Below, piece after piece: positions 26,879-44,420 of a stretch of 64,000 nucleotides of DNA (the first letter of the stretch is position 1; every line of letters begins with the position of its first letter). The position numbers were made by a program, and so were the translations under genes. The DNA is taken from the NCBI GenBank assembly GCA_041661405.1, contig JBAZUL010000005.1:3164-67163 (forward strand), in the 5' to 3' direction. The stretch comes from Patescibacteria group bacterium. GTDB lineage: Bacteria > Patescibacteriota > Patescibacteriia > Patescibacteriales > JBAZCA01. The notes beneath the pieces were generated by a model. The model searched no databases and was not told the origin of the DNA. It saw only the letters and a list, made by a program, of their open reading frames with translations.

Positions 26879-26993
26879 AGGTTTATGTTGATCTAATTAA
26901 TAACAAATTTGGAAACAGGAGAGGACGTTTCCATGCGAAGGCCAGGTGTAACAAAAGCCTTCTACAAAGAATCGTCCTCTCCGGGGCGCGGGG

Positions 26994-27203
26994 TCACTCA
27001 TCCCAGTTTTCATTATCTGGGAGATCGTTATCCCGCGCCTCCTCCTCCAGAGGAGGCGCTTTTTTCTCCTCAACGGTTCCCTCGGACGCCCGAGGAGATT
27101 TAGGCGCCCGAATTTCGGTCGGTGCATTCAAGCAGCGAATGCACCGACCGGTGTCCTGATTCAAGTGCCCGCCATCGCCTGACGGGCAAAAAATAAAAGA
27201 CAT
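26994..27203 (-). CDS. GC-rich small ORF A (69 aa), Cys/His N-terminal half and acidic tail
   Basis: The SD and start read GGGGAGGTGAGAGATG. First-position G periodicity suggests coding. It contains perfect 13-bp (27117-27129/27137-27149) and 10-bp (27035-27044/27050-27059) palindromes. GC is about 55 percent by hand count. Confidence 0.5.
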   Translation of the reverse strand: MSFIFCPSGDGGHLNQDTGRCIRCLNAPTEIRAPKSPRASEGTVEEKKAPPLEEEARDNDLPDNENWDE

Positions 27204-27335
27204 CTCTCACCTCCCCGGCGGCCCATCCTTGCGGCCGCCTTTTTGATTATTAATGCCACCGAACAAAAAACCAGAAACCAATTCTTATTGATTTCCACTT
27301 TCTTGTCCACTGCTATTTTTAAAAGGAACAAAATT
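27204..27335 (-). promoter_or_regulatory. leader of sORF A (paralogous to the leader of sORF B)
   Basis: Shares with 27633-27766 the AATTTTGTTCCTTT box, a 17-bp hairpin (27261-27277/27292-27308), TTAAYAA..AAAGGCG and a GC hairpin abutting the SD. Confidence 0.55.
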
Positions 27336-27419
27336 ATATAAATTCTGTTATTAGAATTGGAACCCGGAGACGTTCCTGAAAGATAGAACACATCTTCCAA
27401 AAGCTTCTCCGGGGCACCG

Positions 27420-27632
27420 CTATTCGTCAACGAGGCCGAGTACTTCGGCCACGGTCTCGCTGACCGTGGTTGGCCAGTAAACTATCAGAATAGCGGCCTC
27501 AACCGGCGTAAAAGCCGGCTGAATTTCTTCGTGACCCCGGTCATCCGGAACCACAATCCCCCCGATTTCCGGGGGTAAGGGGCGTGTTGTTCTCTGCCGG
27601 CACCCCTCGCCGGCGGACTCATTATTAAACAT
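27420..27632 (-). CDS. GC-rich small ORF B (70 aa)
   Basis: The SD and start read GGAAAGGAGAGGAGATG. It contains several perfect internal hairpins, for example CCACGGTCagcgaGACCGTGG. It may be coding or a structured RNA. Confidence 0.45.
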   Translation of the reverse strand: MFNNESAGEGCRQRTTRPLPPEIGGIVVPDDRGHEEIQPAFTPVEAAILIVYWPTTVSETVAEVLGLVDE

Positions 27633-27766
27633 CTCCTCTCCTTTCCGGCGCGCCCCTATCCGAGAGGGGGCAACGCCTTTGTTAATTCCAACGAACAGGA
27701 AACCGGAAACTAAACGCGTTTACTTTCCGCTTTCCTGTCCGCTGATCATTTTAAAGGAACAAAATT
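27633..27766 (-). promoter_or_regulatory. leader of sORF B (paralogous to the leader of sORF A)
   Basis: The hairpin at 27693-27709/27724-27740 aligns with that of leader A. It differs at four stem positions where G-C pairs in B replace A-U or G-U pairs in A, so pairing is kept. Confidence 0.55.
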
Positions 27767-27799
27767 ATTGAAAGGGATTAACGCAATCTAATCCATTTT

Positions 27800-28693
27800 T
27801 TATGTAAATAATCCCGTACTCAAATACTTCTCCCCTCTATCCGGAAAAATCGTTACTATGTTCCCTTTATCAATTTTTTCCGCAATTTTTAAGGTCGCGA
27901 GCATGGCGGCGCCGGACGACATGCCGACAAAAATCCCTTCTTCGGCAATAATTCTCCGCGCCATCCTAAAAGCCTCTTCCGTGTCAATCATAATAACATC
28001 GTCCAATTTTTCGCAGTCATAAATCTCCGGGACAATCGCCTCTTCCATGTTTTTTAATCCCTGGATGTAGTGCTCCTTAACCGGTTCAGCCGAAACGATT
28101 TTCACCGCCGGATTTTTCTTTTTTAAATAAGCGCCAATACCCATGAGCGTTCCCGACGTTCCGAGGGCGGCGGTAAAATAATCAATCTTCCCGCCCATGT
28201 CGCGCCAGATTTCCCGAGCCGTTGTTTCGTAATGGGCGATCTTATTATATTCGTTGCTAAACTGGTTCGGGTTAAAATATTTATCCGGATTTTCCGCCGC
28301 GAGCTCCCTTACTTTCATTATAGCTCCGTCCGTGCCTTTTGTCTTGTCAGTTAAAATTACTTCCGCGCCGAACGCTTTAATCATCTTAATCCGTTCCGGA
28401 GAAACCGCCGCGCTCATTACTATTTCAACCCTATAGCCGCGCGCCGCCCCAATCATGGCGAGCGCGATTCCGGTATTGCCGGAAGTCGCTTCAATAATAA
28501 TTTTTTCCTTATTAAGCTTCCCTTCTTTTTCTCCCTGTTCCAGCATTTTTAAGGCGATCCGGTCTTTTATGCTTCCGCCCGGATTAACACCCTCAATTTT
28601 AGCGTAAATATTCACGCCCTTTTTTTTATTCAGTTTATTGATTTTTACCATCGGCGTCCGGCCGATTGTATCAAGGATGTTGTTATAAATCAT
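27800..28693 (-). CDS. cysK: cysteine synthase (O-acetylserine/O-phosphoserine sulfhydrylase)
   Basis: 297 aa with PGGSIKDR (PLP lysine region), TSGNTGIALA and GTSGT motifs. Confidence 0.9.
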   Translation of the reverse strand: MIYNNILDTIGRTPMVKINKLNKKKGVNIYAKIEGVNPGGSIKDRIALKMLEQGEKEGKLNKEKIIIEATSGNTGIALAMIGAARGYRVEIVMSAAVSPERIKMIKAFGAEVILTDKTKGTDGAIMKVRELAAENPDKYFNPNQFSNEYNKIAHYETTAREIWRDMGGKIDYFTAALGTSGTLMGIGAYLKKKNPAVKIVSAEPVKEHYIQGLKNMEEAIVPEIYDCEKLDDVIMIDTEEAFRMARRIIAEEGIFVGMSSGAAMLATLKIAEKIDKGNIVTIFPDRGEKYLSTGLFT

Positions 28694-28875
28694 ACAAATA
28701 AAATCCGTCCCTTTTGAGGACGGTTTCTTTTTTACAGTCTGCTGTTCATGGGTTTTTTAACTTTCAGACTTAGACTTTTGACTTATGGGAAACCATCCTT
28801 AAAACCGGCTTGCTACCCGAGCCGCCGCATCCGCCTGAAAGAGACATTTTAAAGATGGTTATGTTCATAATTATA
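28694..28875 (-). promoter_or_regulatory. structured cysK leader of about 180 nt (candidate riboswitch or attenuator, class unknown)
   Basis: A 14-bp P1-like helix (28790-28803/28846-28859, one G-U) encloses a GC-rich core. An AAGTC word array follows, then hairpin CCGTCC..GGACGG (28705-28723) plus a U-run 11 nt before the ATG. Promoter-like TTGACA/TATAAT elements lie at about 28880-28915. Confidence 0.4.
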
Positions 28876-28961
28876 TGCTAAATAATTTTTACTCAACTGT
28901 CAATAGCGCCGAGCGCGAGAGAGAGGCGTCCCGTAGCCGCCCCGCATTTTGCGGGGCGGGA

Positions 28962-29600
28962 CTAGGCGCGCGGGGCTGCTTTGGTGATTGATCTGAACAA
29001 ACTATCAACCGTATAACCCTTTTCCATCTGCGCGTAATAATCAATGGTTATATCCGCGAGCTTTTCATAACGCCCGGTTCGGTATTTTAATAATTCCGGA
29101 TAGCATCTTTTTAAGGCTAAAACCGGGTCTTCGCCGGGATTAGCATTATACGACTTACCCCAAAGTATCGGTTTTGGATTGTCAAAATATTGTTTAATTT
29201 TTTTCTCAATCACCGTTTCCGGCGTATCAAAATAAATTATTTTGGTCAGCTTTTTCATCCTGGCTATCAATTTTTCAGCCAAATAAGCAACGCTTCCGGT
29301 CGTGTCAATTACAATATTTTCTCCTGCCCCGTTTTCAACGGCGTCCAGCGCTTTTTGCAGATTCTCCGCTTCCAATTCAAGATAACGACGGCTGTTCTCG
29401 GCGCATCTTCCATCATAAGGCTGTCCGAGCCAGCGGCTCATGTCTTTAATCCCCGAATAGCCGAGTTTTTTCAGTTCCGATTCCAGTCCGGCCTCAATCA
29501 TGTCATCAATACCGAACCTTTTAAATCCTTTTTCTTTTTCCAATTTTCCCGACCAGAACGATTTTCCGACTCCGGACATGCCGATTAAAGAGATAAACAT
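28962..29600 (-). CDS. shikimate-kinase-like P-loop kinase of unknown substrate (paralog of the aroK domain at 40964)
   Basis: From MFISLIGMSGVGKSFWSGKLEKEKGF (Walker A) through GIDDMIE and IDTTGSV, the layout is SKI-family. It is the last gene after thrC. The track start at 29651 adds 17 hydrophobic residues. Confidence 0.65.
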   Translation of the reverse strand: MFISLIGMSGVGKSFWSGKLEKEKGFKRFGIDDMIEAGLESELKKLGYSGIKDMSRWLGQPYDGRCAENSRRYLELEAENLQKALDAVENGAGENIVIDTTGSVAYLAEKLIARMKKLTKIIYFDTPETVIEKKIKQYFDNPKPILWGKSYNANPGEDPVLALKRCYPELLKYRTGRYEKLADITIDYYAQMEKGYTVDSLFRSITKAAPRA

Positions 29601-29675
29601 ATTTCTAAGCAAACAGTAAATAATAAACAGCGAACAGTATCTTTTAACCACTGCTTACTATTTACTGTTTATTGG

Positions 29676-30959
29676 TTACTGGTTGCTTAATAATATCTTT
29701 TTTACTTCCTCATAATCATTCTTAACGCAAATCTTTCTTTTCTCCAGCTTCGCTAAATTAGCAATCTCTTTAGAGTCGTCAACTTCAATGCCGGTGTGCT
29801 TTTTTATTACGTCAGCGAACTTTATTGGCGAGGCCGTGGAAAAAATAACTTTGGTATAATCATTAGAACCTTCTTTTTCCGCTCCGGCAAAAGCCACGGC
29901 CGTATGCGGATCAAGCAAGTATCCGTATTTTTCGTAAACTTTTTTTATTATAGCCGCTGTTTCCGCGTCTTCCACCCTTTCGGCTTTAATTACTTTGCGG
30001 AATTCTTCCGGGTCATTATTGAATACTTTTTGGATGCGGATAAAATTGCTCGGGTTGCCGATGTCCATGGCGTTGGAAAGGGTCGCGACCGTCGCCCGCG
30101 GTTTAAACTCTCCTGTCTCGTAATATTTTTTCGCCGCGTCATTAGCGTTGGTAACGGCTAAAAACCGGCTGAAAGGAAATCCCATTTCCCTAGCGAAAAC
30201 TCCGGCGCAAAGGTTGCCGTAATTGCCGCAAGGCACGACGAATTCCAGCTTCTGATCAGCCAGTTGGGAATAGACATAAGCGTAATAAACCATTTGCGGG
30301 AGGAGCCGGCCGACGCTTATGGAATTAGCCGCCGTAAGGTTTAATTCTGCTAAGTCCGGATCATTAAACGCCCGCTTAGCGAACGCCTGGCAGTCGTCAA
30401 AAACGCCTTCAATTTCTATTGTCGTTACATTCGGTTCTACGCGGGTTAACTGCTCTTCCTGCAGTTTGGAAACCATGCCTTTGGGATAAAGGATGATGAC
30501 TTTCACGTTCGGTACGCCGCCGAAGCCGTGCGCTACAGCGCCGCCCGTATCGCCCGAAGTCGCGACTAAAATCGTCGCGGTCCGGTTTTCTTTTAGAAGG
30601 ATCCGGCCCATGAACCGCGCGAGAACCCGCGCCGCCACGTCCTTAAACGCGAGCGTCGGACCATGGAACAGCTCAAGCACCTGGTAATCGCCGATCTTTT
30701 TCAAAGGCAGGGGAAAATTTAAAGCCTCAGCCATTATTTCCCGGAGTTCGGCTTCGCTAAAATCATCGCTAACCCATTTTAAAAGCGTTTTTGCCGCGGC
30801 TTCGGCCAAAGGCTTTCCTTTTAAATTTTCCAGCTCTTTTGCCGTTAATTTTGGAAAAAATTCGGGAAAATAAAGCCCCCCGTCCGGGGCGAGGCTTTTT
30901 AGCATGGCTTCCCGGAAGGTTGCTTTTGGCGATTTTCCGTTCAGGCTGTAAAAATTCAT
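29676..30959 (-). CDS. thrC: threonine synthase
   Basis: 427 aa. The N-terminus FREAMLKSLAPDGGLYFP, the PLP-lysine region FHGPTLAFKDVA and SGDTGGA fit the long ThrC class. Confidence 0.9.
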   Translation of the reverse strand: MNFYSLNGKSPKATFREAMLKSLAPDGGLYFPEFFPKLTAKELENLKGKPLAEAAAKTLLKWVSDDFSEAELREIMAEALNFPLPLKKIGDYQVLELFHGPTLAFKDVAARVLARFMGRILLKENRTATILVATSGDTGGAVAHGFGGVPNVKVIILYPKGMVSKLQEEQLTRVEPNVTTIEIEGVFDDCQAFAKRAFNDPDLAELNLTAANSISVGRLLPQMVYYAYVYSQLADQKLEFVVPCGNYGNLCAGVFAREMGFPFSRFLAVTNANDAAKKYYETGEFKPRATVATLSNAMDIGNPSNFIRIQKVFNNDPEEFRKVIKAERVEDAETAAIIKKVYEKYGYLLDPHTAVAFAGAEKEGSNDYTKVIFSTASPIKFADVIKKHTGIEVDDSKEIANLAKLEKRKICVKNDYEEVKKILLSNQ

Positions 30960-30974
30960 AAAATCCTAAAAAAT

Positions 30975-31020
30975 GCAAAAATACTAAATTTCGTATTTCG
31001 CATCTTTCGTATTTCGTAGA
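30975..31020 (-). repeat. ACGAAAT-word array in the thrC leader
   Basis: Plus-strand (A/C)TTTCG occurs at 30988, 30995, 31004 and 31011. Confidence 0.6.
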
Positions 31021-31021
31021 G

Positions 31022-31435
31022 TTATTTCTTCTCGTCTTTATTTAATTTATAATTAAAACTCTCAACGAGCGCGATCCAGCTGGCTTCTATAATATTTAAC
31101 GACACTCCGGCCGTTTCCCAACTGTCTTTTCCGTCGGTTGATTCAATCGCTACCCGGACTTTGGCCGCGGTGCCGTCGTTTGAAGGAAGCACCCGGACTT
31201 TGTAATCCGTCAGTTTCATCTTTTTTAAGCCCGGATAAACCCTTTCCAGAGACATTCTTAAAGCGTTATTTAAAGCGTCAACCGGCCCGACCCCGGCCGC
31301 CGTATTCCTTTCTTTATCAGCGCCAACTTTTATCCCGACCTCAGCCTCGGCCGTTGGTTCGCCCCAGTCCCGCTCTTTATGGACGCTCACCCGGTAATCC
31401 ATGAGCTCAAAGAATTTTTTTTCTTTGTTAGGCAT
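31022..31435 (-). CDS. stand-alone LeuA_dimer-type (IPMS/citramalate synthase C-terminal allosteric) domain protein
   Basis: The 137-aa sequence ...AEAEVGIKVG...AAGVGPVDALNNALR...LTDYKVRVLPSNDGTAAKVRVAIESTDGKDSWETAGVSLNIIEASWIALVESFNYKL closely matches the regulatory domain of CimA/LeuA. No catalytic barrel is present. Confidence 0.75.
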   Translation of the reverse strand: MPNKEKKFFELMDYRVSVHKERDWGEPTAEAEVGIKVGADKERNTAAGVGPVDALNNALRMSLERVYPGLKKMKLTDYKVRVLPSNDGTAAKVRVAIESTDGKDSWETAGVSLNIIEASWIALVESFNYKLNKDEKK

Positions 31436-31566
31436 ATTATTTAGAGTTATTATCCCCTTGTAATATTAATCTAGCACATACTCCTAAAAATTCAATCCTC
31501 AACCCTTAACTAATCCGTCTTCCAAATTTTCCCTGTCATGCCTATGGATAAGGTAAAAGTTGAGGA

Positions 31567-31610
31567 GAAGAGGAAGAGATCGGCTTTTTCGCGTCCGTCT
31601 CTTCCTCTTC
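31567..31610 (-). terminator. 13-bp perfect hairpin after sORF63 (terminator-like)
   Basis: GAAGAGGAAGAGA at 31567-31579 pairs with TCTCTTCCTCTTC at 31598-31610. Only a weak U-tract follows on the minus strand. Confidence 0.45.
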
Positions 31611-31629
31611 CCGGGAGGGGCGAGGGCGA

Positions 31630-31821
31630 CTAAAATCCGCCGCCCTCAACCCCGGCTTCCAAACAGATCGCGCGCGCGCCACCCAGTTGGGCGGCGACGT
31701 GCTTGTGGCCGCCACAAAGGCAAGCCACAACCTGCTTGGAAGGGGGTTTTCCCTCCCTTTCCAAGTGCTCCCGGAGGAGGCGAATTGCCTCCTCCAAGGA
31801 TGGTTTTTCTTTGGGGGTCAT
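31630..31821 (-). CDS. GC-rich small ORF (63 aa)
   Basis: The SD and start read GGGAAAGGAGGTGATAACATG. First-position G periodicity is visible. Internal perfect palindromes include a 9-bp one at 31773-31781/31787-31795. Confidence 0.5.
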   Translation of the reverse strand: MTPKEKPSLEEAIRLLREHLEREGKPPSKQVVACLCGGHKHVAAQLGGARAICLEAGVEGGGF

Positions 31822-31972
31822 GTTATCACCTCCTTTCCCCCGAATTTGAAAAAAACAATAAATCTCCTATACAACCCCAGCCTCTTCTAAACTTAATCTT
31901 GTCCTCCGTAGCCTTGGCAAAGGAGGAAAAGGCCAAAGTAATATCCGCGATTTTTTTGAAAGAACATTAAAC

Positions 31973-31999
31973 AAAAATACCGCCCCGGTTGCGGGCGGC
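31973..31999 (-). terminator. attenuator terminator of the Thr/Ile/Met-rich leader
   Basis: The minus strand reads GCCGCCCgcaaccgGGGCGGTATTTTTG. Its 5' arm (31989-31999) is perfectly complementary (11 bp) to 32055-32065 inside the leader ORF. Confidence 0.6.
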
Positions 32000-32027
32000 T
32001 TTCAACTTTTCTTCTAACTTTCAGCTT

Positions 32028-32138
32028 TTAACTTTGAACTTTTAACTTTGTTCTGCCGCCCGCAATTAAAACCCCGGTCATAATAATTCCGGTCATCATC
32101 ATAATGGTCTTAATTGTGGTGGCAATAAATTTCATCAT
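32028..32138 (-). CDS. 36-codon leader peptide rich in Thr, Ile and Met (alternative reading: small hydrophobic peptide)
   Basis: Own translation gives MMKFIATTIKTIMMMTGIIMTGVLIAGGRTKLKVQS. It is below the ORF-track size cutoff. It is preceded by TTGACA-17-TTAAAT, with the ATG 6 nt after the -10 (leaderless geometry). Confidence 0.5.
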   Translation of the reverse strand: MMKFIATTIKTIMMMTGIIMTGVLIAGGRTKLKVQS

Positions 32139-32144
32139 GCTTAT

Positions 32145-32173
32145 ATTTAATCAAACATAGCCAAGGCTGTCAA
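32145..32173 (-). promoter_or_regulatory. sigma70-like promoter for the Thr/Ile/Met leader
   Basis: On the minus strand, TTGACA (32173-32168), a 17-nt spacer and TTAAAT (32150-32145). Confidence 0.5.
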
Positions 32174-33189: not shown

Positions 33190-33220
33190 AAAAACCGTCT
33201 CCCCTTTTCCCTGAGACGGC
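33190..33220 (-). terminator. rho-independent terminator of the pheA-tyrA operon
   Basis: The minus strand reads CCGTCTCagggaaaagggGAGACGG followed by TTTTT. It begins 46 nt after the tyrA stop. Confidence 0.75.
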
Positions 33221-33265
33221 CTGCGTTGTAATTGGAATATATTATAAATAAAATATAACAATCTG

Positions 33266-34294
33266 TCAAGCCTGCCGCCGGTAAGACTCATTCATAATCG
33301 CCCGATAAACTTCCCTGATCAGTTGCTCGTCCAGCTTGAATTTTTTTATTTTGTCCTTAATTATTTCCTCTTCCCTTTTTTTATCAATAACCGGCAGGCC
33401 TTTTTTTCGCTTAATCCGGCCAATGGCTTTTACTTCGGCAAAGCGGTTGCCTAAAAGTCCGAATATCCGGTTGTCAATCTTATTAATCATCCCCCGCCGA
33501 AACCCGAGCTCGTCTTTCGCTCCGGCTTTCCTAATCCGGCTATCCATTAATTCGCAGGCAATCATGAACTTAGCGCGCACGGCAGAAGCGTAGGGATTAT
33601 AATTATGCATGTCGTAGAACAACTGCCAGTTGTCCGAAGTCGTATGCGGGAGGATAGAAAGAAGATCAGTATAGCCGGGAGTAAAAATTTTCTGTTCCCG
33701 CGCTCCGGCGCCGAGTAACGCCCGGCCGACAAAATGGACTAAGCCTAAAGTATAGGCGTTTTGGCGGTCATGATCTTCGGGAGTGGTAATAATAACTTCT
33801 AGTCCCAGGCCAGTTAAAAATTTTCTCGCCATGCTGAGCCGTCGGCTATCAATCCTTATTGGGCATAAGACAATCTGCAGTCCTTTCAATTTCCAGGCTT
33901 GTTTTAAAAAATTGAATTTTGTCGTTACCGGACCGAACTGCGGATGAGTTCCCATGATTAATACATTTTCAGGCAAATATTTCTTAAGCCAGCCGCAAGG
34001 ATAAACTTTAACTGAACAGGTATCAACGATCAAAGCGCCCGGCTTTACGTCTGGCGCGATTTTTTTTATCACCTTTTCGGTCTGCGATATGGGGACAGCG
34101 AGAATTATTAAATCGCAGGCGGCCGCTTCTTTTAAGCTTACTATTCCAGCGCTGATTTTTTTCGCTTTAGCAATATCATCTTTGGAAAACCCGCTGTCAT
34201 AAACCTTAACCTGAGCCTTTCCGGAAAAAACGCTCGCGGCCAACTTTCCAAAACGGCCGAATCCGATAATAGCGACTGTTTTCTTACCGGTCAT
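33266..34294 (-). CDS. tyrA: prephenate dehydrogenase with C-terminal chorismate mutase (AroQ) domain
   Basis: The N-terminus VAIIGFGRFGK is a Rossmann motif within a PDH core. The C-terminal 90 aa (RRGMINKIDNRIFGLLGNRFAEVKAIGRIKRKKGLPVIDKKREEEI) fit the AroQ CM helix pattern. Confidence 0.85.
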   Translation of the reverse strand: MTGKKTVAIIGFGRFGKLAASVFSGKAQVKVYDSGFSKDDIAKAKKISAGIVSLKEAAACDLIILAVPISQTEKVIKKIAPDVKPGALIVDTCSVKVYPCGWLKKYLPENVLIMGTHPQFGPVTTKFNFLKQAWKLKGLQIVLCPIRIDSRRLSMARKFLTGLGLEVIITTPEDHDRQNAYTLGLVHFVGRALLGAGAREQKIFTPGYTDLLSILPHTTSDNWQLFYDMHNYNPYASAVRAKFMIACELMDSRIRKAGAKDELGFRRGMINKIDNRIFGLLGNRFAEVKAIGRIKRKKGLPVIDKKREEEIIKDKIKKFKLDEQLIREVYRAIMNESYRRQA

Positions 34295-34947: not shown

Positions 34948-34976
34948 TTGACACGTCTTTTGAAAATGTGTATTAT
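34948..34976 (+). promoter_or_regulatory. sigma70-like promoter of the aromatic supraoperon
   Basis: TTGACA (34948-34953), an exact 17-nt spacer and TATTAT (34971-34976). Confidence 0.6.
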
Positions 34977-35005
34977 TTAAAAAGTTGCAAAAATACATTT
35001 TTATT

Positions 35006-35086
35006 ATGAAAATCGTCCAATTGTGGTTTAGCTACTTTTACTTTTACTTTACCCTTACTACAAGGCCGGTTTTTTGCATTAGCTAA
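35006..35086 (+). CDS. aromatic-rich leader peptide (26 aa)
   Basis: Own translation gives MKIVQLWFSYFYFYFTLTTRPVFCIS. Eight of nine consecutive codons (W7-F15) are Trp, Phe or Tyr. It is below the ORF-track cutoff. Confidence 0.7.
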   Translation: MKIVQLWFSYFYFYFTLTTRPVFCIS

Positions 35087-35109
35087 CAGCATACATTAAA
35101 AAGATTAAA

Positions 35110-35136
35110 CCCGGCCCAATAGATGGCCGGTTTTTT
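35110..35136 (+). terminator. attenuator terminator downstream of the aromatic leader peptide
   Basis: CCGGCC (35111-35116) pairs with GGCCGG (35125-35130) and is followed by T6 (35131-35136). An identical GGCCGG at 35064-35069 inside the leader ORF can pair with 35111-35116 as an antiterminator. Confidence 0.65.
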
Positions 35137-35184: not shown

Positions 35185-35979
35185 ATGCCAAGCAAAAAAG
35201 CACTACTGTCAAAAATCATTAACCCGCTATCCGGACGGACGGTTATTGTTCCCATGGATCACGGCGTTACCGACGGACCGATTCCGGGTCTCTTAAAAAT
35301 GGATGAGACCATTAAAAGGGTAAAGGAAGGCGGCGCTGACGCGATTATTATTCATAAAGGCATTTTTAAATTATATAAAGAAGTAATCGGCGATCTCCCG
35401 GCTCTGATCCATATTTCAGCCTCAACCGGCATGGGCGTTTCTTTAAAAAAAGTTTTAGTCGCGACCGCCAAAGAAGTTAAAAATTTAGGCGCGGCCGGAG
35501 TTTCGGTGCATCTAAATATCGGCAACCAATACGAGCCGGAAATGCTTCGCGATCTGGGGATAGTGGCGCGCGAATGCGAAGAAGAGGGTTTACCCCTGCT
35601 CGCCATGATGTACCCGAGAAACATTATTGACGGAAAAATCATCAATTATAACGACGCGGAAAAGGTCGGCCACGCCGCCCGCTTAGCCGCCGAACTGGGT
35701 GCTGATATAGTCAAAGTCCCTTACACCGGCGACGCTAAAAGTTTCGGCGAAGTGGTTCGCGGCTGTCCCATACCGGTTGTAATCGCCGGCGGAGCCAAAG
35801 GATCGGAAGAGGCAATGCTTTCTTCAATCCGGGATTGCGTCCTTGCCGGAGCGGCCGGAGTTTCAGTCGGCCGAAATGTTTTCCAATCCGAAGACGTTTC
35901 CGGCATGGTTAAAAAAGTCCGGGAAGCGGTATATGACGCCGCGGCTGTATCAGCCAACGCTAAAACATCGCGTAATTAA
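35185..35979 (+). CDS. 2-amino-3,7-dideoxy-D-threo-hept-6-ulosonate (ADH) synthase, archaeal-type AroA' (class I aldolase/DhnA family)
   Basis: 264 aa. VIVPMDHGVTDGP, IIHKG, LLAMMYPR, AARLAAELGADIVKVPYTGD, PVVIAGG and GAAGVSVGRNVFQ closely follow my recollection of M. jannaschii MJ0400. It is adjacent to aroB'. Confidence 0.8.
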   Translation: MPSKKALLSKIINPLSGRTVIVPMDHGVTDGPIPGLLKMDETIKRVKEGGADAIIIHKGIFKLYKEVIGDLPALIHISASTGMGVSLKKVLVATAKEVKNLGAAGVSVHLNIGNQYEPEMLRDLGIVARECEEEGLPLLAMMYPRNIIDGKIINYNDAEKVGHAARLAAELGADIVKVPYTGDAKSFGEVVRGCPIPVVIAGGAKGSEEAMLSSIRDCVLAGAAGVSVGRNVFQSEDVSGMVKKVREAVYDAAAVSANAKTSRN

Positions 35980-35992
35980 AATTTAAATTTTT

Positions 35993-37003
35993 ATGTCTAA
36001 AACATTCTGGTATCAGCCCCCGGTCTGGGATAAAAAACTGGTTACCGCGGCCATTGAATCGGGCTTTTCAGCAATCTACGTCCGGCCGGAAGACATAGCC
36101 CGGACTAAAGAGCTGTCTTTAGCCAAAGTCATTTCAACCGTCGCGCCAGCTGATTTTATTATCGGCGAGAATGTTGACGAAGTGATTATTAAAAACAAGG
36201 AATCAGAAAACAGGGCTGTCGCGCATCAGGGGAAAATCCCGGTTATCATCCGCAATGTTGACTGGACCATTATCCCTTTGGAAAATCTCATCTCAAAAAC
36301 TTCCAACCTGATCCAGCATGTCCGGAGTTGTGATGAAGCAAAACTGGCTTTTGAAACTCTGGAAACCGGCTGTGACGGCATACTGCTTGAAACCAGCGAC
36401 TTGAATGAAATAAAAAAAACCGCCGGCCTGATAAAAGACGCCCAAAACGAAAAGTTAAAACTTATCCAGGCTGAAATTACTTCCATAGAACAGCTCGGAT
36501 TGGGCGACCGGGTCGTTGTTGATACTTCTTCTATATTATTTCCCGGCCAGGGCATGCTTATCGGCGACTCTTCCAAAAGTATGTTTTTAGTATATAATGA
36601 AAACGTGGAGACTCCCTACTGCGATCCGCGGCCTTTCCGGGTAAACGCCGGCGGCGCCCACGCCTATATCCGCCTGCCCGGCGACAAAACCAAATATCTT
36701 GGGGAATTAAAAAGCGGCCTGAAAGCCCTTACCGTTGACCGGGAAGGCAATACCGAAGAAGTTATCATCGGCCGGGTAAAGATTGAAAAACGCCCCATGC
36801 TCATTGTCCGGGCCAAAGCCGGAGAACGGGACATGAGCCTTGTCATGCAGAACGCCGAAACCATCCGCCTAACCGGAATTGACGGACAGCCGATTTCAGT
36901 TACTAAATTAAAACCGGGCGACCGGGTGCTCGCCTTCCTGCAGGAAGAAGGCGTCGGAAGGCATTTCGGACAAAAAATTAAAGAGACAATCACTGAGAGG
37001 TAA
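35993..37003 (+). CDS. 3-dehydroquinate synthase II, archaeal-type AroB'
   Basis: 336 aa. The N-terminal W...KK.VTAAIESG pattern and the RPFRVNAGGAHAY motif are characteristic of the DHQS-II (MJ1249-like) family. Confidence 0.85.
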   Translation: MSKTFWYQPPVWDKKLVTAAIESGFSAIYVRPEDIARTKELSLAKVISTVAPADFIIGENVDEVIIKNKESENRAVAHQGKIPVIIRNVDWTIIPLENLISKTSNLIQHVRSCDEAKLAFETLETGCDGILLETSDLNEIKKTAGLIKDAQNEKLKLIQAEITSIEQLGLGDRVVVDTSSILFPGQGMLIGDSSKSMFLVYNENVETPYCDPRPFRVNAGGAHAYIRLPGDKTKYLGELKSGLKALTVDREGNTEEVIIGRVKIEKRPMLIVRAKAGERDMSLVMQNAETIRLTGIDGQPISVTKLKPGDRVLAFLQEEGVGRHFGQKIKETITER

Positions 37004-37026
37004 TACAATTTTTTTCAATAATACAT

Positions 37027-37055
37027 CGCCGCCGTTTGCTTGCTAAACGGCGGCG
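37027..37055 (+). other. perfect 11-bp GC hairpin between aroB' and ask
   Basis: CGCCGCCGTTT (37027-37037) pairs with AAACGGCGGCG (37045-37055). No U-tract follows, so a terminator role is doubtful. Confidence 0.4.
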
Positions 37056-37099
37056 AAAATGATAACTTGGAAAAATAACAGCTTCTAATTCCGTCATAT

Positions 37100-38488
37100 A
37101 TGGCAAAAAACGGAAAAATCATCGTTAATAAATTCGGCGGCGGGATCATGATTGAAAAGCATATCCCCTTTACCGATGAAAGATTAAGAGAGCAGATTAA
37201 AGCTGGCTTCCGGCCTGTTGTTGTCGTTTCGGCTTTAAAAGGCGTCACCGACCGGATCATCCATTTCCTCGCCGGACTGAAACAGGAAGTCTGCCGCAAT
37301 CAGCAAATCGGCGGCAATACCGACAAATATTCCCGCCGGCTGGTAAGCCCTTTTGTCGCCGAATTAAAGGAAGAGCATCTTAGACTTCTGGAACAAGTCG
37401 GAGTCTTAAGGGAAGAGCGGAAAAAAGCCATGGCCGACATGGATAAAATTTTCTTCCGGCTGGAAAATGATTTAAACGCCCTCCTTCATTTCGGATTCTT
37501 AAATGTTTTTGATGATAAGATCTCGGCCTATGGCGAAAAGCTGGCCGGGGTTTTTTTTACCGCCTATCTTAATTCCAAAGGCTTTACGGCCCGGACGATC
37601 ATGGCCGAAGACATTCCGATCATGACCGACGATTGTTTCCGCGACGCTAATATTGATTACAAAGTTTCGGAGAAAAACGCGAGAAAAAAAATCCTGAAAA
37701 CCGAAGGCATCCCGGTCATCCCTGGCTTTACCGGAAAAACCGCCAACGGGAATATAACAACGCTCGGCCGCGGCGGAACCGATACGACCGCCTGCTTTTT
37801 GGGAGCGGCCTTGAGGGCCGACAAGGTGATTCTTTGGAAAGACGTGGACGGCGTATTGTCCGCCGACCCGAAAATCGTTCCCTCCGCCAAAACCGTCCCT
37901 TTTATCAGCTACGCCGAAGCTGAAGAATCCGGTAAAGTCATCCATGATAAAGCTATCCAATATATAAAAATGTTTAAAACTCCGGCCGAAGTGGCGGCCA
38001 TTTCCGATCCAACGAAAAAAACTCTGGTCGGTCCGGCTAAAGATAAAAAGGAAGGCCCGAAAATCGTCAGCTTTAAAAAAGGGCTCTCGCTTCTCATTAT
38101 CACCGACGAAAAAATGAACCAACGCGGCTACCTCGCCCATGTTGCCGGGCTCCTGGCCGCCCGTAGAATAAACCTGGACACGATCAGGAATACCCGCGAT
38201 AAACTACATATTGTCGCCGAAAGCTATAACGGACCGATTGAGGAGGCGATAAAAGATTTAAAAGAAGAAATCGCCAAACTAAAAATCATTCCGGTAAATA
38301 TGGTTATTTTGATCGGCAGTCTTGACTGGAAAATGGTCAACCGCTTTAACGACGTATTAATAAAACTCTGTCCGGACGCGGAACTCGGCGCTTTTCCCTA
38401 CCGGAATTGCGTCCGGCTGGAAGCCATAGTCCGAGCCGAAGACACGGAAAAAATGGTTCGGGCTTTGCATGAGGAATTTATAAAATAA
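37100..38488 (+). CDS. ask: aspartate kinase
   Basis: 462 aa. VNKFGGGIM is a KFGG motif, GRGGTDTTA is present, and there are C-terminal ACT-like repeats. Confidence 0.9.
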   Translation: MAKNGKIIVNKFGGGIMIEKHIPFTDERLREQIKAGFRPVVVVSALKGVTDRIIHFLAGLKQEVCRNQQIGGNTDKYSRRLVSPFVAELKEEHLRLLEQVGVLREERKKAMADMDKIFFRLENDLNALLHFGFLNVFDDKISAYGEKLAGVFFTAYLNSKGFTARTIMAEDIPIMTDDCFRDANIDYKVSEKNARKKILKTEGIPVIPGFTGKTANGNITTLGRGGTDTTACFLGAALRADKVILWKDVDGVLSADPKIVPSAKTVPFISYAEAEESGKVIHDKAIQYIKMFKTPAEVAAISDPTKKTLVGPAKDKKEGPKIVSFKKGLSLLIITDEKMNQRGYLAHVAGLLAARRINLDTIRNTRDKLHIVAESYNGPIEEAIKDLKEEIAKLKIIPVNMVILIGSLDWKMVNRFNDVLIKLCPDAELGAFPYRNCVRLEAIVRAEDTEKMVRALHEEFIK

Positions 38489-38494
38489 AATTTT

Positions 38495-39583
38495 ATGAAA
38501 AAATTCAGAGTCGGCATTCTCGGCGCCACCGGCATGGTCGGCCAAAATTACATAAGACTGCTTAATGGCCACCCTTGGTTTAAAGTTACCTACGTCGCGG
38601 CATCAGCCAATTCGGCCGGAGTAACTTATTTTGATTCCATAATCGGCCGCTGGCAAATGGCGACCGCCGTCCCCAAAGATGTAAGATCTTTGGTTGTCCA
38701 GGATGTCGCTAATATTAAAGAAGCGAAAAAGCATTGCGACTTTGTTTTTTCGGCTTTTGAGATGCCGGACAAAAGCCTGGTTAAGGAAATGGAGGAAAAA
38801 TACGCGGCCGCGGGAATTCCTGTTGTGTCAAACGCCTCGGCCAACCGGTTTACCGATGACGTGCCGATGCTCATCCCGGAAATAAACCCCCATCACATAG
38901 ACATCATCCCGGTTCAGAAAAAAAACCGCGGCTGGAAAAAAGGCTTTATTGTTGTCAAACCCAACTGCAGTCTTCAAAGCTATATTACTCCGGTTTTTGC
39001 CCTCATACAGGCGGGATATCCGGTTGAAAAAATATTTATCACCACCCTGCAGGCAGTATCCGGCGCCGGCTATCCGGGCGTTCCGTCGCTTGACATGATT
39101 GGTAATGTCGTGCCTTTCATTCCGGGCGAAGAAGAAAAGACTGAAGAAGAGCCGCTAAAAATCCTTGGGGAAATAAAAGACGGAATATTCCAAAAAGCCG
39201 CCTCGCCGGCGATTTCCGCCCATTGCAACCGGGTGCCGGTGATTGACGGACATTTAGCCTGCGTCAGCCTGAAATTCGCGGAAAAAAAACCGGCTCGGGA
39301 AAAAATCCTTAAAGTCTGGAAAGAATTCAGAGCCCTGCCGCAGACCTTGAAACTGCCCATGGCGCCGGAACAGCCGATCCTCTACCGCAACGAGCATAAC
39401 CGCCCCCAGCCGAGAAAAGACCGCGACCGGGAAAAAGGCATGGCCGTTACTGTTGGGCGGCTCCGGGAATGTAAAATCTTTGATTACAAATTCGCCGCCT
39501 TAAGCCATAATACGGTTCGCGGCGCCGCCGGCGGAGGAATATTAAACGCGGAACTCTTGGTAAAGAAAGGATACATAAAATGA
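38495..39583 (+). CDS. asd: aspartate-semialdehyde dehydrogenase
   Basis: 362 aa. VGILGATGMVGQ and the active-site region KPNCSLQ are present, with a C-terminal HNTVRGAAG. Confidence 0.9.
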   Translation: MKKFRVGILGATGMVGQNYIRLLNGHPWFKVTYVAASANSAGVTYFDSIIGRWQMATAVPKDVRSLVVQDVANIKEAKKHCDFVFSAFEMPDKSLVKEMEEKYAAAGIPVVSNASANRFTDDVPMLIPEINPHHIDIIPVQKKNRGWKKGFIVVKPNCSLQSYITPVFALIQAGYPVEKIFITTLQAVSGAGYPGVPSLDMIGNVVPFIPGEEEKTEEEPLKILGEIKDGIFQKAASPAISAHCNRVPVIDGHLACVSLKFAEKKPAREKILKVWKEFRALPQTLKLPMAPEQPILYRNEHNRPQPRKDRDREKGMAVTVGRLRECKIFDYKFAALSHNTVRGAAGGGILNAELLVKKGYIK

Positions 39584-44134: not shown

Positions 44135-44420
44135 AGAACATTTACAGAAATAATATCCACAGCCAGATCCCGGTCTTTCCGGGAATGGGTCTGGCTTTTC
44201 TCCCGCTAATCCGGGAGAAGGATGGCTTTTGCATGAGTGAAAGCCCGGCTTCCTCCGTAACCAAAGGATAACTGAATTCCACGCGGACTCGTTCTGAGCC
44301 TGCCGAAGGAGTCAGTGAAAGCGTCCCGCCCGAGGCGGGAAAAAAAGGTGGCACCGCGGGATAACCTCTCGTCCTTTTATCCAAGTATTTTATTTGGGTA
44401 AAAAGATGAGAGGTTTTTTT
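44135..44420 (+). promoter_or_regulatory. T-box riboswitch leader (presumed tRNA-Trp-responsive) with terminator
   Basis: The T-box sequence AAAGGTGGCACCGCGGGA (core at 44347-44358), AGTGAAAG elements, a stem III-like CCCGCCcgaGGCGGG, and a terminator AACCTCTC (44363-44370) / GAGAGGTT (44408-44415) plus T7, directly before trpE. Confidence 0.75.

What the first reader, a model, noticed from the sequence alone, without database searches (positions are those of the whole stretch)
31973..32173. Third leader-peptide attenuator candidate: Thr/Ile/Met-rich, leaderless, with an 11-bp perfect antiterminator
A TTGACA-17-TTAAAT promoter places the transcription start at or next to the ATG of a 36-codon ORF, MMKFIATTIKTIMMMTGIIMTGVLIAGGRTKLKVQS. 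It has 6 Thr, 6 Ile and 6 Met and resembles the E. coli thrL peptide [21 protein letters not shown]. Codons 25-28 (TTGCGGGCGGC, 32055-32065) are exactly complementary to the 5' arm of a downstream terminator (31989-31999). That arm otherwise pairs with GGGGCGG followed by a U-run. Downstream lie sORF63, the LeuA-domain protein, thrC and a kinase. All three enriched residues belong to the aspartate family. The alternative reading is a small hydrophobic, toxin-like peptide.
Basis: partly seen in the sequence, partly recalled or inferred. Interest (0 to 1): 0.65.

Follow-up and report, generated by a model that had tools for sequence, protein, structure and literature searches.

The report
Thr/Ile/Met leader-peptide attenuator in Patescibacteria
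This is very probably a classical ribosome-sensing transcription attenuator, a tiny Thr/Ile/Met-rich leader gene followed by alternative RNA hairpins and a terminator, in an amino-acid biosynthesis island of an uncultivated Patescibacteria (CPR) bacterium; the mechanism is well known, the host lineage is new for it.

Summary

Codons 5-11 pair with codons 22-29. This gives a 1:2 helix that competes with the 2:3 antiterminator and the 3:4 terminator. All three helices are present in the four known variants. The terminated and antiterminated states are close in energy.

Thirteen of the 16 codons where a stalled ribosome would free region 2 are Thr, Ile or Met.

The genome is a Patescibacteria amino-acid biosynthesis island. 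It holds sister leaders: a Leu-rich one before leuA, WFSYFYFYF before the aro operon, another leaderless one before cysK, and a T-box before trpE.

Weak points:
- Only four close variants exist, so covariation is not significant.
- A small-ORF cassette and a possible internal promoter lie between the terminator and the LeuA-domain gene, thrC and the kinase.
- The role of the Met codons is unclear.
- AAGUY heptad repeats in the 2-3 spacer are unexplained.

Verdict: a new member of a known kind, of moderate interest.

The parts
32145..32173 (-). Promoter: -35 TTGACA (32173-32168), 17-nt spacer, -10 TTAAAT (32150-32145). The predicted start is at or next to the A of the ATG at 32138, so the mRNA would be leaderless.
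   Evidence: Read directly. Both hexamers are kept in all four variants while the spacer and upstream flank diverge. The cysK sister leader has the same 6-nt gap between -10 and ATG.
32028..32138 (-). Leader ORF, 36 codons plus stop: MMKFIATTIKTIMMMTGIIMTGVLIAGGRTKLKVQS. There is no Shine-Dalgarno sequence.
   Evidence: The ATG, the frame (including an in-frame 3-nt deletion in L084) and the stop position are conserved in the four variants. The only non-3n indels lie outside the ORF.
32076..32123 (-). Regulatory codon window, codons 6-21 (ATTIKTIMMMTGIIMT). Thirteen of the 16 are Thr, Ile or Met. A ribosome with its A site at codon 21 or earlier would leave the antiterminator arm free.
   Evidence: binomial P = 6e-9, chosen post hoc. 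The footprint geometry is inference from a ribosome footprint of about 30 nt.
32106..32124 (-). Region 1 (nt 15-33 of the transcript, U GCC ACC ACA AUU AAG ACC). It pairs with region 2.
   Evidence: This pairing appears in the minimum-energy fold of the nascent RNA in all four variants. Duplex energies are -17 to -20 kcal/mol. In L084, ACC->GUC turns an A.C mismatch into G-C plus U.G.
32078..32104 (-). Top hairpin of P1: UUAUGAUGAU / GACCGGA loop / AUUAUUAUGA. It is built from the Ile/Met/Thr codons.
   Evidence: The sequence is invariant in all four variants (helix 2).
32054..32073 (-). Region 2 (GGUUUUAAUUGCGGGCGGCA). It pairs either with region 1 or, through UUGCGGGCGGC (32065-32055), with region 3.
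32005..32048 (-). Spacer of 55 nt between regions 2 and 3. It is filled with five to six AAGUY repeats of period about 7 and contains the stop codon (32030-32028).
   Evidence: there are only two such clusters in the 64 kb, and the other is in the cysK leader. Spacer length (51-56 nt) and the repeat character are kept in the variants while the sequence drifts. Function is unexplained.
31989..31999 (-). Region 3 (GCCGCCCGCAA). It is both the 3' arm of the antiterminator and the 5' arm of the terminator.
   Evidence: The pairing is 10-12 bp in every variant; the C->U change in L084 gives a G.U pair.
31969..31999 (-). Intrinsic terminator: stem GCCGCCC/GGGGCGG (31999-31979) with a variable loop, then AUUUUUGUUU.
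   Evidence: The stem is invariant and the loop varies (AACC, AATT, AAAC, ACC) among variants. The same terminator is called in L001.
31630..31821 (-). First gene after the terminator: a 63-aa ORF with a strong Shine-Dalgarno sequence (GGAAAGGAGGTGA). It is part of a variable small-ORF cassette. No promoter is recognisable between the terminator and this ORF.
   Evidence: A homologue is present in L085. Different ORFs occupy this place in L084 and L001.
31567..31610 (-). 13-bp perfect hairpin at the 3' end of the cassette, with no adjacent U-run.
   Evidence: Read. Conserved in L084 and L085, with a related form in L001. It is not called as a terminator.
31468..31495 (-). Conserved promoter-like block TTGAAT-16-TGcTAGATT, 33 nt before the LeuA_dimer ATG. 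It may be a separate promoter for the thrC genes.
   Evidence: Read. Conserved in L085 and L001. It falls below the threshold of the scan.
28962..31435 (-). Candidate regulated genes: a stand-alone citramalate-synthase-type LeuA_dimer regulatory domain (31435-31022), thrC (30959-29676) and a homoserine-kinase-like P-loop kinase (29651-28962).
28705..28903 (-). Sister element before cysK: promoter TTGACA-17-TAGCAT, then 6 nt, then the leaderless ORF MNITIFKMSLSGGCGGSGSKPVLRMVSHKSKV (28868-28770). AAGUY repeats lie at 28784-28760, and helices 1:2, 2:3 and 3:4 are present. The terminator is at 28723-28705 and the cysK ATG follows at 28693.

Best explanation
The element is a ribosome-mediated transcription attenuator.

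Step 1. A sigma-70-type promoter starts the transcript at the AUG of a 36-codon leader ORF, so the mRNA is leaderless.

Step 2. As the RNA emerges it folds into a long hairpin, P1. In P1, region 1 (codons 5-11) pairs with region 2 (codons 22-29). This hides the sequence UUGCGGGCGGC.

Step 3, no stalling. If no ribosome stalls, region 2 is either covered by the moving ribosome or re-pairs with region 1 behind it. Region 3 then pairs with region 4 and transcription stops at the U-run near 31972.

Step 4, stalling. If charged Ile-, Thr- (and perhaps Met-) tRNA is scarce, the ribosome stalls in codons 6-21. It then holds region 1 and the top of P1 but leaves region 2 free. Region 2 pairs with region 3 (10-12 bp), the terminator cannot form, and RNA polymerase reads on.

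Step 5, targets. Read-through first reaches the small-ORF cassette. It most likely continues into the stand-alone LeuA-domain gene, thrC and the homoserine-kinase-like gene.

What is shown by sequence: the promoter, the ORF, the three competing helices and their conservation, the codon bias and its position, and the sister leaders.

What is inferred: the start site, translation of the ORF, stalling, which amino acids are sensed, and how far read-through extends.

My sub-estimates: attenuator of this type 0.7; Ile and Thr as signals 0.55; Met as a true signal 0.3; thrC-kinase among the regulated genes 0.5.
For: Observation and chance controls:
The fold has z = -3.8.

The three-helix design:
- The nascent RNA of all four variants folds into the same extended P1, pairing region 1 with region 2.
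- Helices 1:2, 2:3 and 3:4 exist in every variant.
- The terminated and antiterminated states differ by only 2-6 kcal/mol.

Substitutions fit the helices:
- In L084, ACC->GUC repairs a mismatch in 1:2. C->U gives G.U in 2:3. Deletion of ACC is matched by loss of constraint on its partner GGU.
- 97% of cells are paired, against 29-55% when partners are slid.

RNA-level constraint:
- Twenty-three consecutive codons are identical between window and L001.
- In the neighbouring genes only 55-67% of conserved residues keep their codon. The longest identical run in thrC is 11 codons.

Signs of translation:
- The ATG is kept amid diverged flanks.
- An indel inside the ORF is in frame.
- The stop position is kept.

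Codon bias:
- Thirteen of 16 codons in the window where stalling is productive are Thr, Ile or Met. In the rest of the peptide the count is 4 of 19.

Genomic logic:
- The organism makes Ile from Thr. It has IlvA, here fused to a LeuA_dimer domain, plus ilvBCDE.
- The island carries matched sister leaders. One is Leu-rich, before leuA. One reads WFSYFYFYF, before the aro operon.
- A third, before cysK, is leaderless. It has the same three helices and one compensatory U-A to C-G change.

Precedent:
- Leaderless leader peptides are documented in Actinobacteria (PMC8079986; bioRxiv 10.1101/834739).
Against: - Only four distinct variants exist, all from one narrow clade. Formal covariation is therefore not significant: 388 of 500 shuffles reach the observed score.
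- The terminator is 158 nt from the next ORF and 540 nt from the LeuA-domain gene. In relatives this distance is 550-1150 nt, filled with one or two different small ORFs.
- A conserved promoter-like block sits directly before the LeuA-domain gene. The thrC genes may therefore not depend on this leader.
- The three sister leaders, by contrast, directly abut their operons.
- Thr codons are the least conserved of the three: T7V, T8K and deletion of T11 occur among the variants. Four invariant Met codons have no precedent in thr leaders and may be there only to build the top hairpin.
- More distant Patescibacteria with the thrC-kinase pair have no such leader.
- There is no transcript or ribosome data.
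Confidence: 0.68

Rival explanations
1. The attenuator is real but is uncoupled from threonine synthesis. It would control only the small-ORF cassette or cassettes immediately downstream, or be a relic. The LeuA-domain gene, thrC and the kinase would be transcribed from their own promoter at 31495-31468.
For: The conserved TTGAAT-16-TGcTAGATT block lies 33 nt before the LeuA_dimer ATG. The cassette content between leader and thrC genes varies. A 13-bp hairpin closes the cassette. The other leaders in the island abut their operons, whereas this one does not.
Against: The leader is under stronger constraint than the neighbouring genes, so it is not a relic. Thr/Ile codons make no sense for unrelated, interchangeable small ORFs. 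No terminator is called between 31979 and the thrC genes. All genes from 34865 to 24142 run in the same direction. No promoter is recognisable between the terminator and the cassette ORF, so read-through from the leader is its likely source.
Confidence: 0.25
2. It is an independent gene for a small hydrophobic membrane peptide, either toxin-like or a small membrane protein, with its own promoter and terminator. The complementarity to the terminator would then be incidental.
For: The segment TIMMMTGIIMTGVLIAGG is hydrophobic (my Kyte-Doolittle estimate is about 1.8). The tail is basic. The gene has its own promoter and its own terminator.
Against: Substitutions within the hydrophobic core are non-conservative (V23N in L084, T8K in L085). 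There is not one synonymous change. The 11-nt antiterminator and the 1:2 helix are far beyond chance and are conserved. The cysK leader has the same architecture and repeats but is not hydrophobic. No antisense promoter points into the ORF. No homologue was found in any protein family library or in the metagenome scan outside this clade. Ile-rich leader peptides are hydrophobic by composition anyway.
Confidence: 0.1
3. It is a factor-dependent attenuator or an RNA-only switch. A trans-acting protein would bind the AAGUY heptad array in the 2-3 spacer, as TRAP binds its triplet repeats, and decide between antiterminator and terminator. The stand-alone LeuA_dimer amino-acid-binding domain is one candidate. 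The ORF would be secondary or incidental.
For: AAGUY heptad repeats occur only in the two leaders within the 64 kb and are rare elsewhere. The repeat character is kept in all variants. Conservation is at the nucleotide level without synonymous change. A unique stand-alone regulatory domain is encoded downstream.
Against: The repeats drift in sequence and spacing far more than the helices do. The cysK leader shows mostly synonymous change, as expected for a translated ORF. ATG, frame and stop are conserved. The codon bias matches the pathway, as it does in the Leu and aromatic leaders that lack the repeats. LeuA_dimer domains have no known RNA binding (my own knowledge).
Confidence: 0.07
4. It is a stand-alone small RNA of about 165 nt, running from promoter to terminator, that acts in trans.
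For: It is a discrete promoter-to-terminator unit with a highly conserved structured core and an A/U-rich single-stranded stretch.
Against: This does not explain the competing 1:2, 2:3 and 3:4 helices or their near-equal energies. It does not explain the conserved AUG at the transcript start, or the amino-acid-matched sister elements sitting directly before biosynthetic genes. No Rfam family matches.
Confidence: 0.04

Closest known systems
E. coli thr operon leader (thrL, Rfam RF00506) and the other enterobacterial leader-peptide attenuators (trpL, hisL, leuL, ilvL, pheL)
   Same: A short ORF enriched in codons for the end products (Thr and Ile in thrL). Three mutually exclusive helices, 1:2, 2:3 and 3:4, with an intrinsic terminator. 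It lies upstream of threonine-pathway genes. Sensing of several amino acids at once is plausible.
   Different: There is no sequence or covariance-model homology (16.8 bits against a gathering score of 55). The mRNA is leaderless rather than Shine-Dalgarno-led. The ORF is longer (36 codons) and reads through region 2, stopping inside a 55-nt spacer between regions 2 and 3. It has four invariant Met codons and AAGUY heptad repeats. It is separated from thrC by a small-ORF cassette. The host is Patescibacteria.
Leaderless leader peptides of Actinobacteria (Streptomyces and Corynebacterium leuL, ilvL, trpL, thrL, metL: PMC8079986; mycobacterial polycysteine leaderless short ORFs: bioRxiv 10.1101/834739)
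   Same: The transcript starts at the initiation codon of the leader ORF. Regulatory codons match the downstream pathway. Hairpins and, in several cases, a U-run follow.
   Different: The phylum is unrelated and there is no sequence similarity. The actinobacterial peptides are mostly shorter (12-29 aa) and several lack a clear terminator. Here a complete three-helix design with a canonical terminator is present.
B. subtilis trp attenuation by TRAP (protein bound to spaced triplet repeats)
   Same: A repeat array lies next to an antiterminator/terminator pair in an amino-acid operon leader.
   Different: TRAP sites are (G/U)AG triplets that overlap the antiterminator 5' arm, and no leader ORF is involved. 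Here the repeats are AAGUY heptads in the loop of the antiterminator, and a translated ORF is likely. No binding protein is known. This is only a lead for the unexplained repeats.
Type I toxin and small hydrophobic peptide genes
   Same: A peptide of about 35 aa that is hydrophobic with a charged tail. It has its own promoter and terminator.
   Different: There is no antisense RNA signal and the hydrophobic core is not conserved. A conserved antiterminator and a 1:2 helix are present. The sister element encodes a non-hydrophobic peptide.

Membership tests
Ribosome-mediated (leader-peptide) transcription attenuator | A short ORF with a usable start at the 5' end of the operon leader | tested here: met
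   The ORF has 36 codons. Its ATG lies 6 nt after the -10 hexamer, the geometry of a leaderless mRNA. ATG, frame and stop are conserved in four variants. Translation itself is not shown.
Ribosome-mediated (leader-peptide) transcription attenuator | A cluster of codons for the end-product amino acid or acids, placed so that stalling exposes the antiterminator | tested here: met
   Thirteen of 16 codons (6-21) are Thr, Ile or Met, against a background of 14.8%. Codon 21 is the last position whose footprint leaves nt 74-84 free (inference). Ile and Met codons are invariant; Thr codons are partly variable.
Ribosome-mediated (leader-peptide) transcription attenuator | An intrinsic terminator downstream of the ORF | tested here: met
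   Stem at 31999-31979 plus a U-run. The stem is invariant and the loop variable in relatives.
Ribosome-mediated (leader-peptide) transcription attenuator | An antiterminator (2:3) mutually exclusive with the terminator | tested here: met
   An 11-bp perfect complement, reached by 0 of 20,000 shuffles. The pairing is 10-12 bp in all variants.
Ribosome-mediated (leader-peptide) transcription attenuator | A 1:2 helix overlapping the ORF that sequesters region 2 when no ribosome is stalled | tested here: met
   Present in the minimum-energy fold of the nascent RNA of all four variants and supported by the L084 substitutions. Covariation is not statistically significant with four sequences.
Ribosome-mediated (leader-peptide) transcription attenuator | Same transcription unit as, and directly upstream of, the regulated biosynthetic genes | tested here: inconclusive
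   Same strand, and no called terminator in between. However, a variable small-ORF cassette and a conserved promoter-like block lie before the LeuA-domain/thrC genes.
Ribosome-mediated (leader-peptide) transcription attenuator | Premature termination relieved by starvation for the cognate amino acid | not testable with these tools
   Needs transcript mapping or a reporter or in-vitro assay.
Rfam Thr_leader (RF00506) | A covariance-model score at or above the gathering threshold (55 bits) | tested here: not met
   16.8 bits, E = 5.2. It is absent at the gathering threshold. The element is an analogue, not a member.
Type I toxin-antitoxin / small membrane toxin | A conserved hydrophobic transmembrane peptide with an overlapping or adjacent antisense RNA | tested here: not met
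   The core carries V23N and T8K in relatives. No antisense promoter is directed into the ORF. No family hit was found.
T-box or metabolite riboswitch | A match to a known aptamer or T-box model | tested here: not met
   No Rfam match even at E <= 10 apart from noise. By contrast, the trpE leader in the same window matches T-box at E = 7e-9.

The most novel reading that the evidence does not exclude
The AAGUY heptad array fills the long region 2-3 spacer of both the thr and cys leaders. It could be a binding platform for a trans-acting amino-acid sensor. The obvious candidate is the stand-alone citramalate-synthase-type regulatory domain encoded just downstream, which is unique to this clade. 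These leaders would then integrate two inputs, ribosome stalling and a TRAP-like protein, which would be a new hybrid attenuation mechanism.
Probability: 0.06. Interest if true: 0.85.

Novelty: new member of a known kind. Interest (0 to 1): 0.45.

Why it matters
Patescibacteria (CPR) are usually described as metabolically reduced. Their gene regulation is almost unstudied because they are uncultivated.

This window shows one lineage with a large amino-acid biosynthesis island. The island appears to be governed by a set of classical devices that sense tRNA charging:
- four leader-peptide attenuators (Leu, aromatic, Thr/Ile/Met, and one before cysK);
- a T-box before trpE.

If confirmed, this would imply coupled transcription and translation in CPR, and probably leaderless initiation as well. 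It would extend ribosome-mediated attenuation to a new superphylum.

It would also offer compact, well-defined test objects. Examples are a possibly Met-responsive leader and a long repeat-filled 'delay' spacer, both useful for studying how attenuator geometry is tuned.

I found no paper in the searched library that combines the terms 'leader peptide', 'attenuation' and 'Patescibacteria'.

Tried and rejected
A 48-aa extended version from L084 found nothing. An exact look-up found only the window's own peptide.
- A viral-contig scan found no relative.
- The metagenome scan gave only four loci, which collapse with the window, L001 and L085 into four distinct variants.
- The genome scan with ThrC gave one close relative (80%). 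The next best hits were Bacteroidota at 47%.
- ThrC relatives at 55-65% identity (Tagabacteria and others) keep the thrC-kinase pair but have short intergenic regions and no leader.
- Rfam gave nothing at gathering or at E <= 10. Thr_leader at 16.8 bits is noise.
- Covariation counting was not significant because there are only 3-4 sequences.
- A control using real 130-nt windows was contaminated by self-hits on the opposite strand, so I discarded it.
- The 'stand-alone' LeuA_dimer proteins elsewhere turned out to be frameshift fragments of full-length CimA/LeuA. They give no wider context.
- The small cassette ORFs match no Pfam or NCBIfam family.
- The idea that the aro leader shares the AAGU repeats was rejected. 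The minus-strand AAAGU run there is only the complement of the (UAC UUU)n Tyr/Phe codons.
Full report
OBSERVATION

The feature is on the minus strand. TTGACA (32173-32168), a 17-nt spacer and TTAAAT (32150-32145) are followed after six bases by ATG (32138). That ATG opens a 36-codon ORF ending at 32028, MMKFIATTIKTIMMMTGIIMTGVLIAGGRTKLKVQS, with six Thr, six Ile and six Met.

UUGCGGGCGGC (32065-32055) is the exact complement of GCCGCCCGCAA (31999-31989). The latter is the 5' arm of a terminator hairpin (31999-31979) followed by AUUUUUGUUU.

In 20,000 dinucleotide-preserving shuffles of the upstream 131 nt, no complement of 11 nt or more arose, and P(>=9) was 8.5e-4. The RNA folds better than all 200 shuffles, with z = -3.8. 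Thr+Ile+Met make up 14.8% of the window's proteins but half of this peptide. This is the top value among 163 six-frame ATG-ORFs of 30-45 aa.

ORGANISM AND CONTEXT

ThrC is 80% identical to that of a Patescibacteria MAG (L001). The next genome hits are Bacteroidota at 47%. A metagenomic ThrC at 93% identity (L085) shows the same synteny.

The window is an amino-acid biosynthesis island.
- Minus strand, right side: leuA/cimA, leuCD, leuB, an IlvA-LeuA_dimer fusion, ilvE, ilvD, ilvB, ilvC.
- Plus strand: trpEGDCFBA and an archaeal-type aro operon that includes aspartate kinase and asd.
- Minus strand, centre: pheA, tyrA-CM, small ORFs, this element, a 63-aa ORF, and a stand-alone LeuA_dimer domain closest to citramalate synthase.
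- The same strand continues with thrC, a P-loop kinase with a weak match to Desulfovibrio-type homoserine kinase, cysK/M, serA, serC and serB.

RELATIVES OF THE ELEMENT

A back-translated scan of the metagenome collection found four loci. With the window, L001 and L085 these collapse to four distinct variants: window = L081, L001 = L082, L085 = L083, and the more divergent L084.
- Both promoter hexamers, the ATG, the reading frame and the stop position are kept in all four.
- The only indel inside the ORF is a 3-nt deletion. Indels that are not multiples of three lie outside it.
- Nucleotides 16-84 of the ORF show no synonymous change at all.
- The changes that do occur are non-synonymous: T8K in L085, and T7V, deletion of T11, V23N and A26V in L084.
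- Between window and L001, 23 consecutive codons are identical. In thrC, the LeuA-domain gene and cysK only 55-67% of conserved residues keep their codon, and the longest identical run in thrC is 11 codons. My rough estimate is p about 4e-4.

The core is therefore constrained as RNA, not merely as peptide. More distant Patescibacteria (ThrC 59-65% identical) keep thrC plus the kinase but have no leader.

Folding the nascent transcript before region 3 exists gives the same long hairpin, P1, in all four variants.
- Region 1 (nt 15-33, U GCC ACC ACA AUU AAG ACC) pairs with region 2 (nt 66-85, GGUUUUAAUUGCGGGCGGCA).
- The top stem is built from the AUU/AUG/ACC codons.

The element thus has the full classical set of helices: 1:2, 2:3 (10-12 bp) and 3:4. 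All are present in every variant. The terminated and antiterminated folds are within 2-6 kcal/mol of each other.

The L084 substitutions fit these helices.
- ACC->GUC converts an A.C mismatch in 1:2 into G-C plus U.G.
- C->U in region 2 gives G.U in 2:3.
- Deletion of ACC is accompanied by change of its partner GGU.

97% of cells pair, against 29-55% with slid partners. With four sequences, however, covariation is not statistically significant. I state that plainly.

CODON GEOMETRY (INFERENCE)

With a footprint of about 30 nt, a ribosome whose A site is at codon 21 or earlier leaves nt 74-84 free. A ribosome at codon 6 or later occupies region 1 or the interior of P1. Codons 6-21 read ATTIKTIMMMTGIIMT, and 13 of these 16 are Thr, Ile or Met. 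In the rest of the peptide the count is 4 of 19. The bias therefore sits exactly where stalling would switch the RNA to the antiterminated form.

SISTER ELEMENTS

(a) cysK leader. The promoter TTGACA-17-TAGCAT is again followed by six bases and an ATG. The 32-codon ORF encodes MNITIFKMSLSGGCGGSGSKPVLRMVSHKSKV. The same three-helix layout is present. The terminator (28723-28705) lies 12 nt before the cysK ATG. In L085 and L001 this leader shows five synonymous and two non-synonymous changes, including one compensatory U-A to C-G pair in its 1:2 helix.

(b) aro leader. It encodes MKIVQLWFSYFYFYFTLTTRPVFCIS (35006-35086, plus strand) and is followed by a terminator at 35111-35130.

(c) leuA leader, just beyond the window end in L092. 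It encodes MFKMLIKLTVKLFNLLLLLPLRRVAVFS. GGGUGGC within the ORF is complementary to the 5' arm of a terminator.

(d) A divergent T-box before trpE, at 45 bits and E = 7e-9.

Leaders whose enriched residues match their operons show that this lineage uses ribosome-mediated attenuation. That makes the same reading for the Thr/Ile/Met leader credible. The organism converts Thr to Ile through IlvA, so joint Thr/Ile control would mirror E. coli thrL.

MECHANISM PROPOSED

Transcription starts at the AUG, and P1 forms as the RNA emerges.

Without stalling, region 2 is either under the moving ribosome or re-paired with region 1. Region 3 then pairs with region 4, and transcription ends near 31972.

With stalling at Ile, Thr or possibly Met codons, region 2 is free and pairs with region 3, so polymerase reads through.

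The stop codon lies 24 nt past region 2. A terminating ribosome would therefore sit in the spacer just downstream of region 2. The cysK leader shows the same geometry (18 nt).

The 2-3 spacer is 51-56 nt here and 64 nt in the cysK leader, somewhat shorter than the span of P1 (about 70 nt). It may work as an unstructured delay line that keeps polymerase and ribosome in register. This last point is speculation.

WEAK POINTS
- The terminator is not adjacent to thrC. It is followed, 158 nt on, by a 63-aa ORF with a strong Shine-Dalgarno sequence, then a 13-bp hairpin (31610-31567), and then a conserved TTGAAT-16-TGcTAGATT block (31495-31468) 33 nt before the LeuA-domain ATG.
- In relatives the interval holds one or two different small ORFs between conserved flanks.
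- I see no promoter between the terminator and the cassette ORF, and no called terminator before thrC. Read-through into thrC is therefore plausible but unproven, and the thrC genes may also have their own promoter.
- Thr codons are the least conserved of the three residue types. The four invariant AUG codons may be structural, because they form the top stem.
- The AAGUY heptad repeats in the spacer are unexplained. They are shared only with the cysK leader within the 64 kb and are rare elsewhere.

RIVALS

A small hydrophobic toxin-like peptide is disfavoured by three things: V23N and T8K in the core, the absence of synonymous change, and the non-hydrophobic cysK sibling.

An RNA-only or protein-bound switch, or a trans-acting sRNA, cannot be excluded. 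These readings explain less: they do not account for the conserved AUG, frame and stop, the codon bias, or the sister leaders.

COMPARISON WITH KNOWN SYSTEMS

Functionally this is a leader-peptide attenuator like E. coli thrL. It is not a member of Rfam Thr_leader (16.8 bits against 55).

Leaderless leader ORFs are known in Actinobacteria (PMC8079986; bioRxiv 10.1101/834739).

A full-text search for 'leader peptide', 'attenuation' and 'Patescibacteria' together returned no paper.

VERDICT

It is a new member of a known kind, with unexplained details (Met codons, repeat spacer, cassette insertion). Interest is moderate.

Noticed in passing
window 28705-28903 (minus strand): A second leaderless leader with the same architecture lies directly before cysK. 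It has the promoter TTGACA-17-TAGCAT, then 6 nt, then the ORF MNITIFKMSLSGGCGGSGSKPVLRMVSHKSKV. It also has AAGUY repeats, helices 1:2, 2:3 and 3:4, and a terminator 12 nt before the cysK ATG. It contains only one Cys codon, so what it senses is unclear. Relatives show mostly synonymous change and one compensatory base pair.
   Followed up: partly
window 34948-35130 (plus strand): An aromatic leader peptide, MKIVQLWFSYFYFYFTLTTRPVFCIS (35006-35086), lies between the promoter TTGACA-17-TATTAT and a terminator (35111-35130). It sits before the archaeal-type aro operon that starts at 35185.
   Followed up: partly
L092 6274-6403 (same genome, just beyond the window's right end): A Leu-rich leader, MFKMLIKLTVKLFNLLLLLPLRRVAVFS (9 Leu of 28), lies before leuA/cimA. 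GGGUGGC inside the ORF is complementary to the 5' arm of the terminator at 6387-6403.
   Followed up: partly
window 44205-44379 (plus strand): A divergent T-box leader lies before trpE. It scores 45 bits (E = 7e-9), below Rfam's gathering score of 93, so it was missed at the default threshold. A promoter lies at about 44101 and a terminator just before 44422.
   Followed up: partly
window 32005-32048 and 28760-28784 (minus strand): AAGUY heptad repeats (4-6 copies) fill the spacer between regions 2 and 3 of two leaders and straddle their stop codons. These are the only two such clusters in 64 kb. Their function is unexplained; possibilities are a delay line, a pause signal or a protein-binding array.
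   Followed up: partly
window 31022-31435 and 57558-59408 (minus strand): A stand-alone 137-aa LeuA_dimer domain, closest to the citramalate synthase regulatory domain, is encoded right before thrC. Threonine dehydratase (IlvA) carries the same domain as a C-terminal fusion. Apparent stand-alone homologues elsewhere were frameshift fragments of full-length enzymes. The true stand-alone form therefore seems confined to this clade.
   Followed up: partly
window 31560-31960 and 26890-27780; L001 2460-3290; L085 2610-3500; L084 1810-2278: Small-ORF cassettes are inserted in intergenic regions of the island. Each has a conserved 5' block with a strong Shine-Dalgarno sequence, a variable and often Cys-rich ORF of 57-100 aa with no family match, and a conserved 3' hairpin block. 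Copy number between the thr leader and the LeuA-domain gene differs among relatives (one or two).
   Followed up: partly
window 33190-33269 (minus strand): A perfect consensus promoter, TTGACA-17-TATAAT (33269-33241), is followed about 20 nt later by a hairpin, CCGTCTC/GAGACGG (33219-33195), and a T-run. This suggests a very short transcript or another attenuator just after tyrA.
   Followed up: no
window 35185-39583 (plus strand): The aro operon uses the archaeal route, with a DeoC-family ADH synthase and DHQS-II. It includes aspartate kinase and aspartate-semialdehyde dehydrogenase, which is unusual content for a Patescibacteria genome.
   Followed up: no
L001 2295-2460: A MITE-like insertion with inverted repeats (TTCCGGC...GCCGGAA, CGCGGGAATGAC) lies directly after the leader terminator in the L001 relative. 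L084 has a different insertion of about 100 nt at the same place.
   Followed up: no
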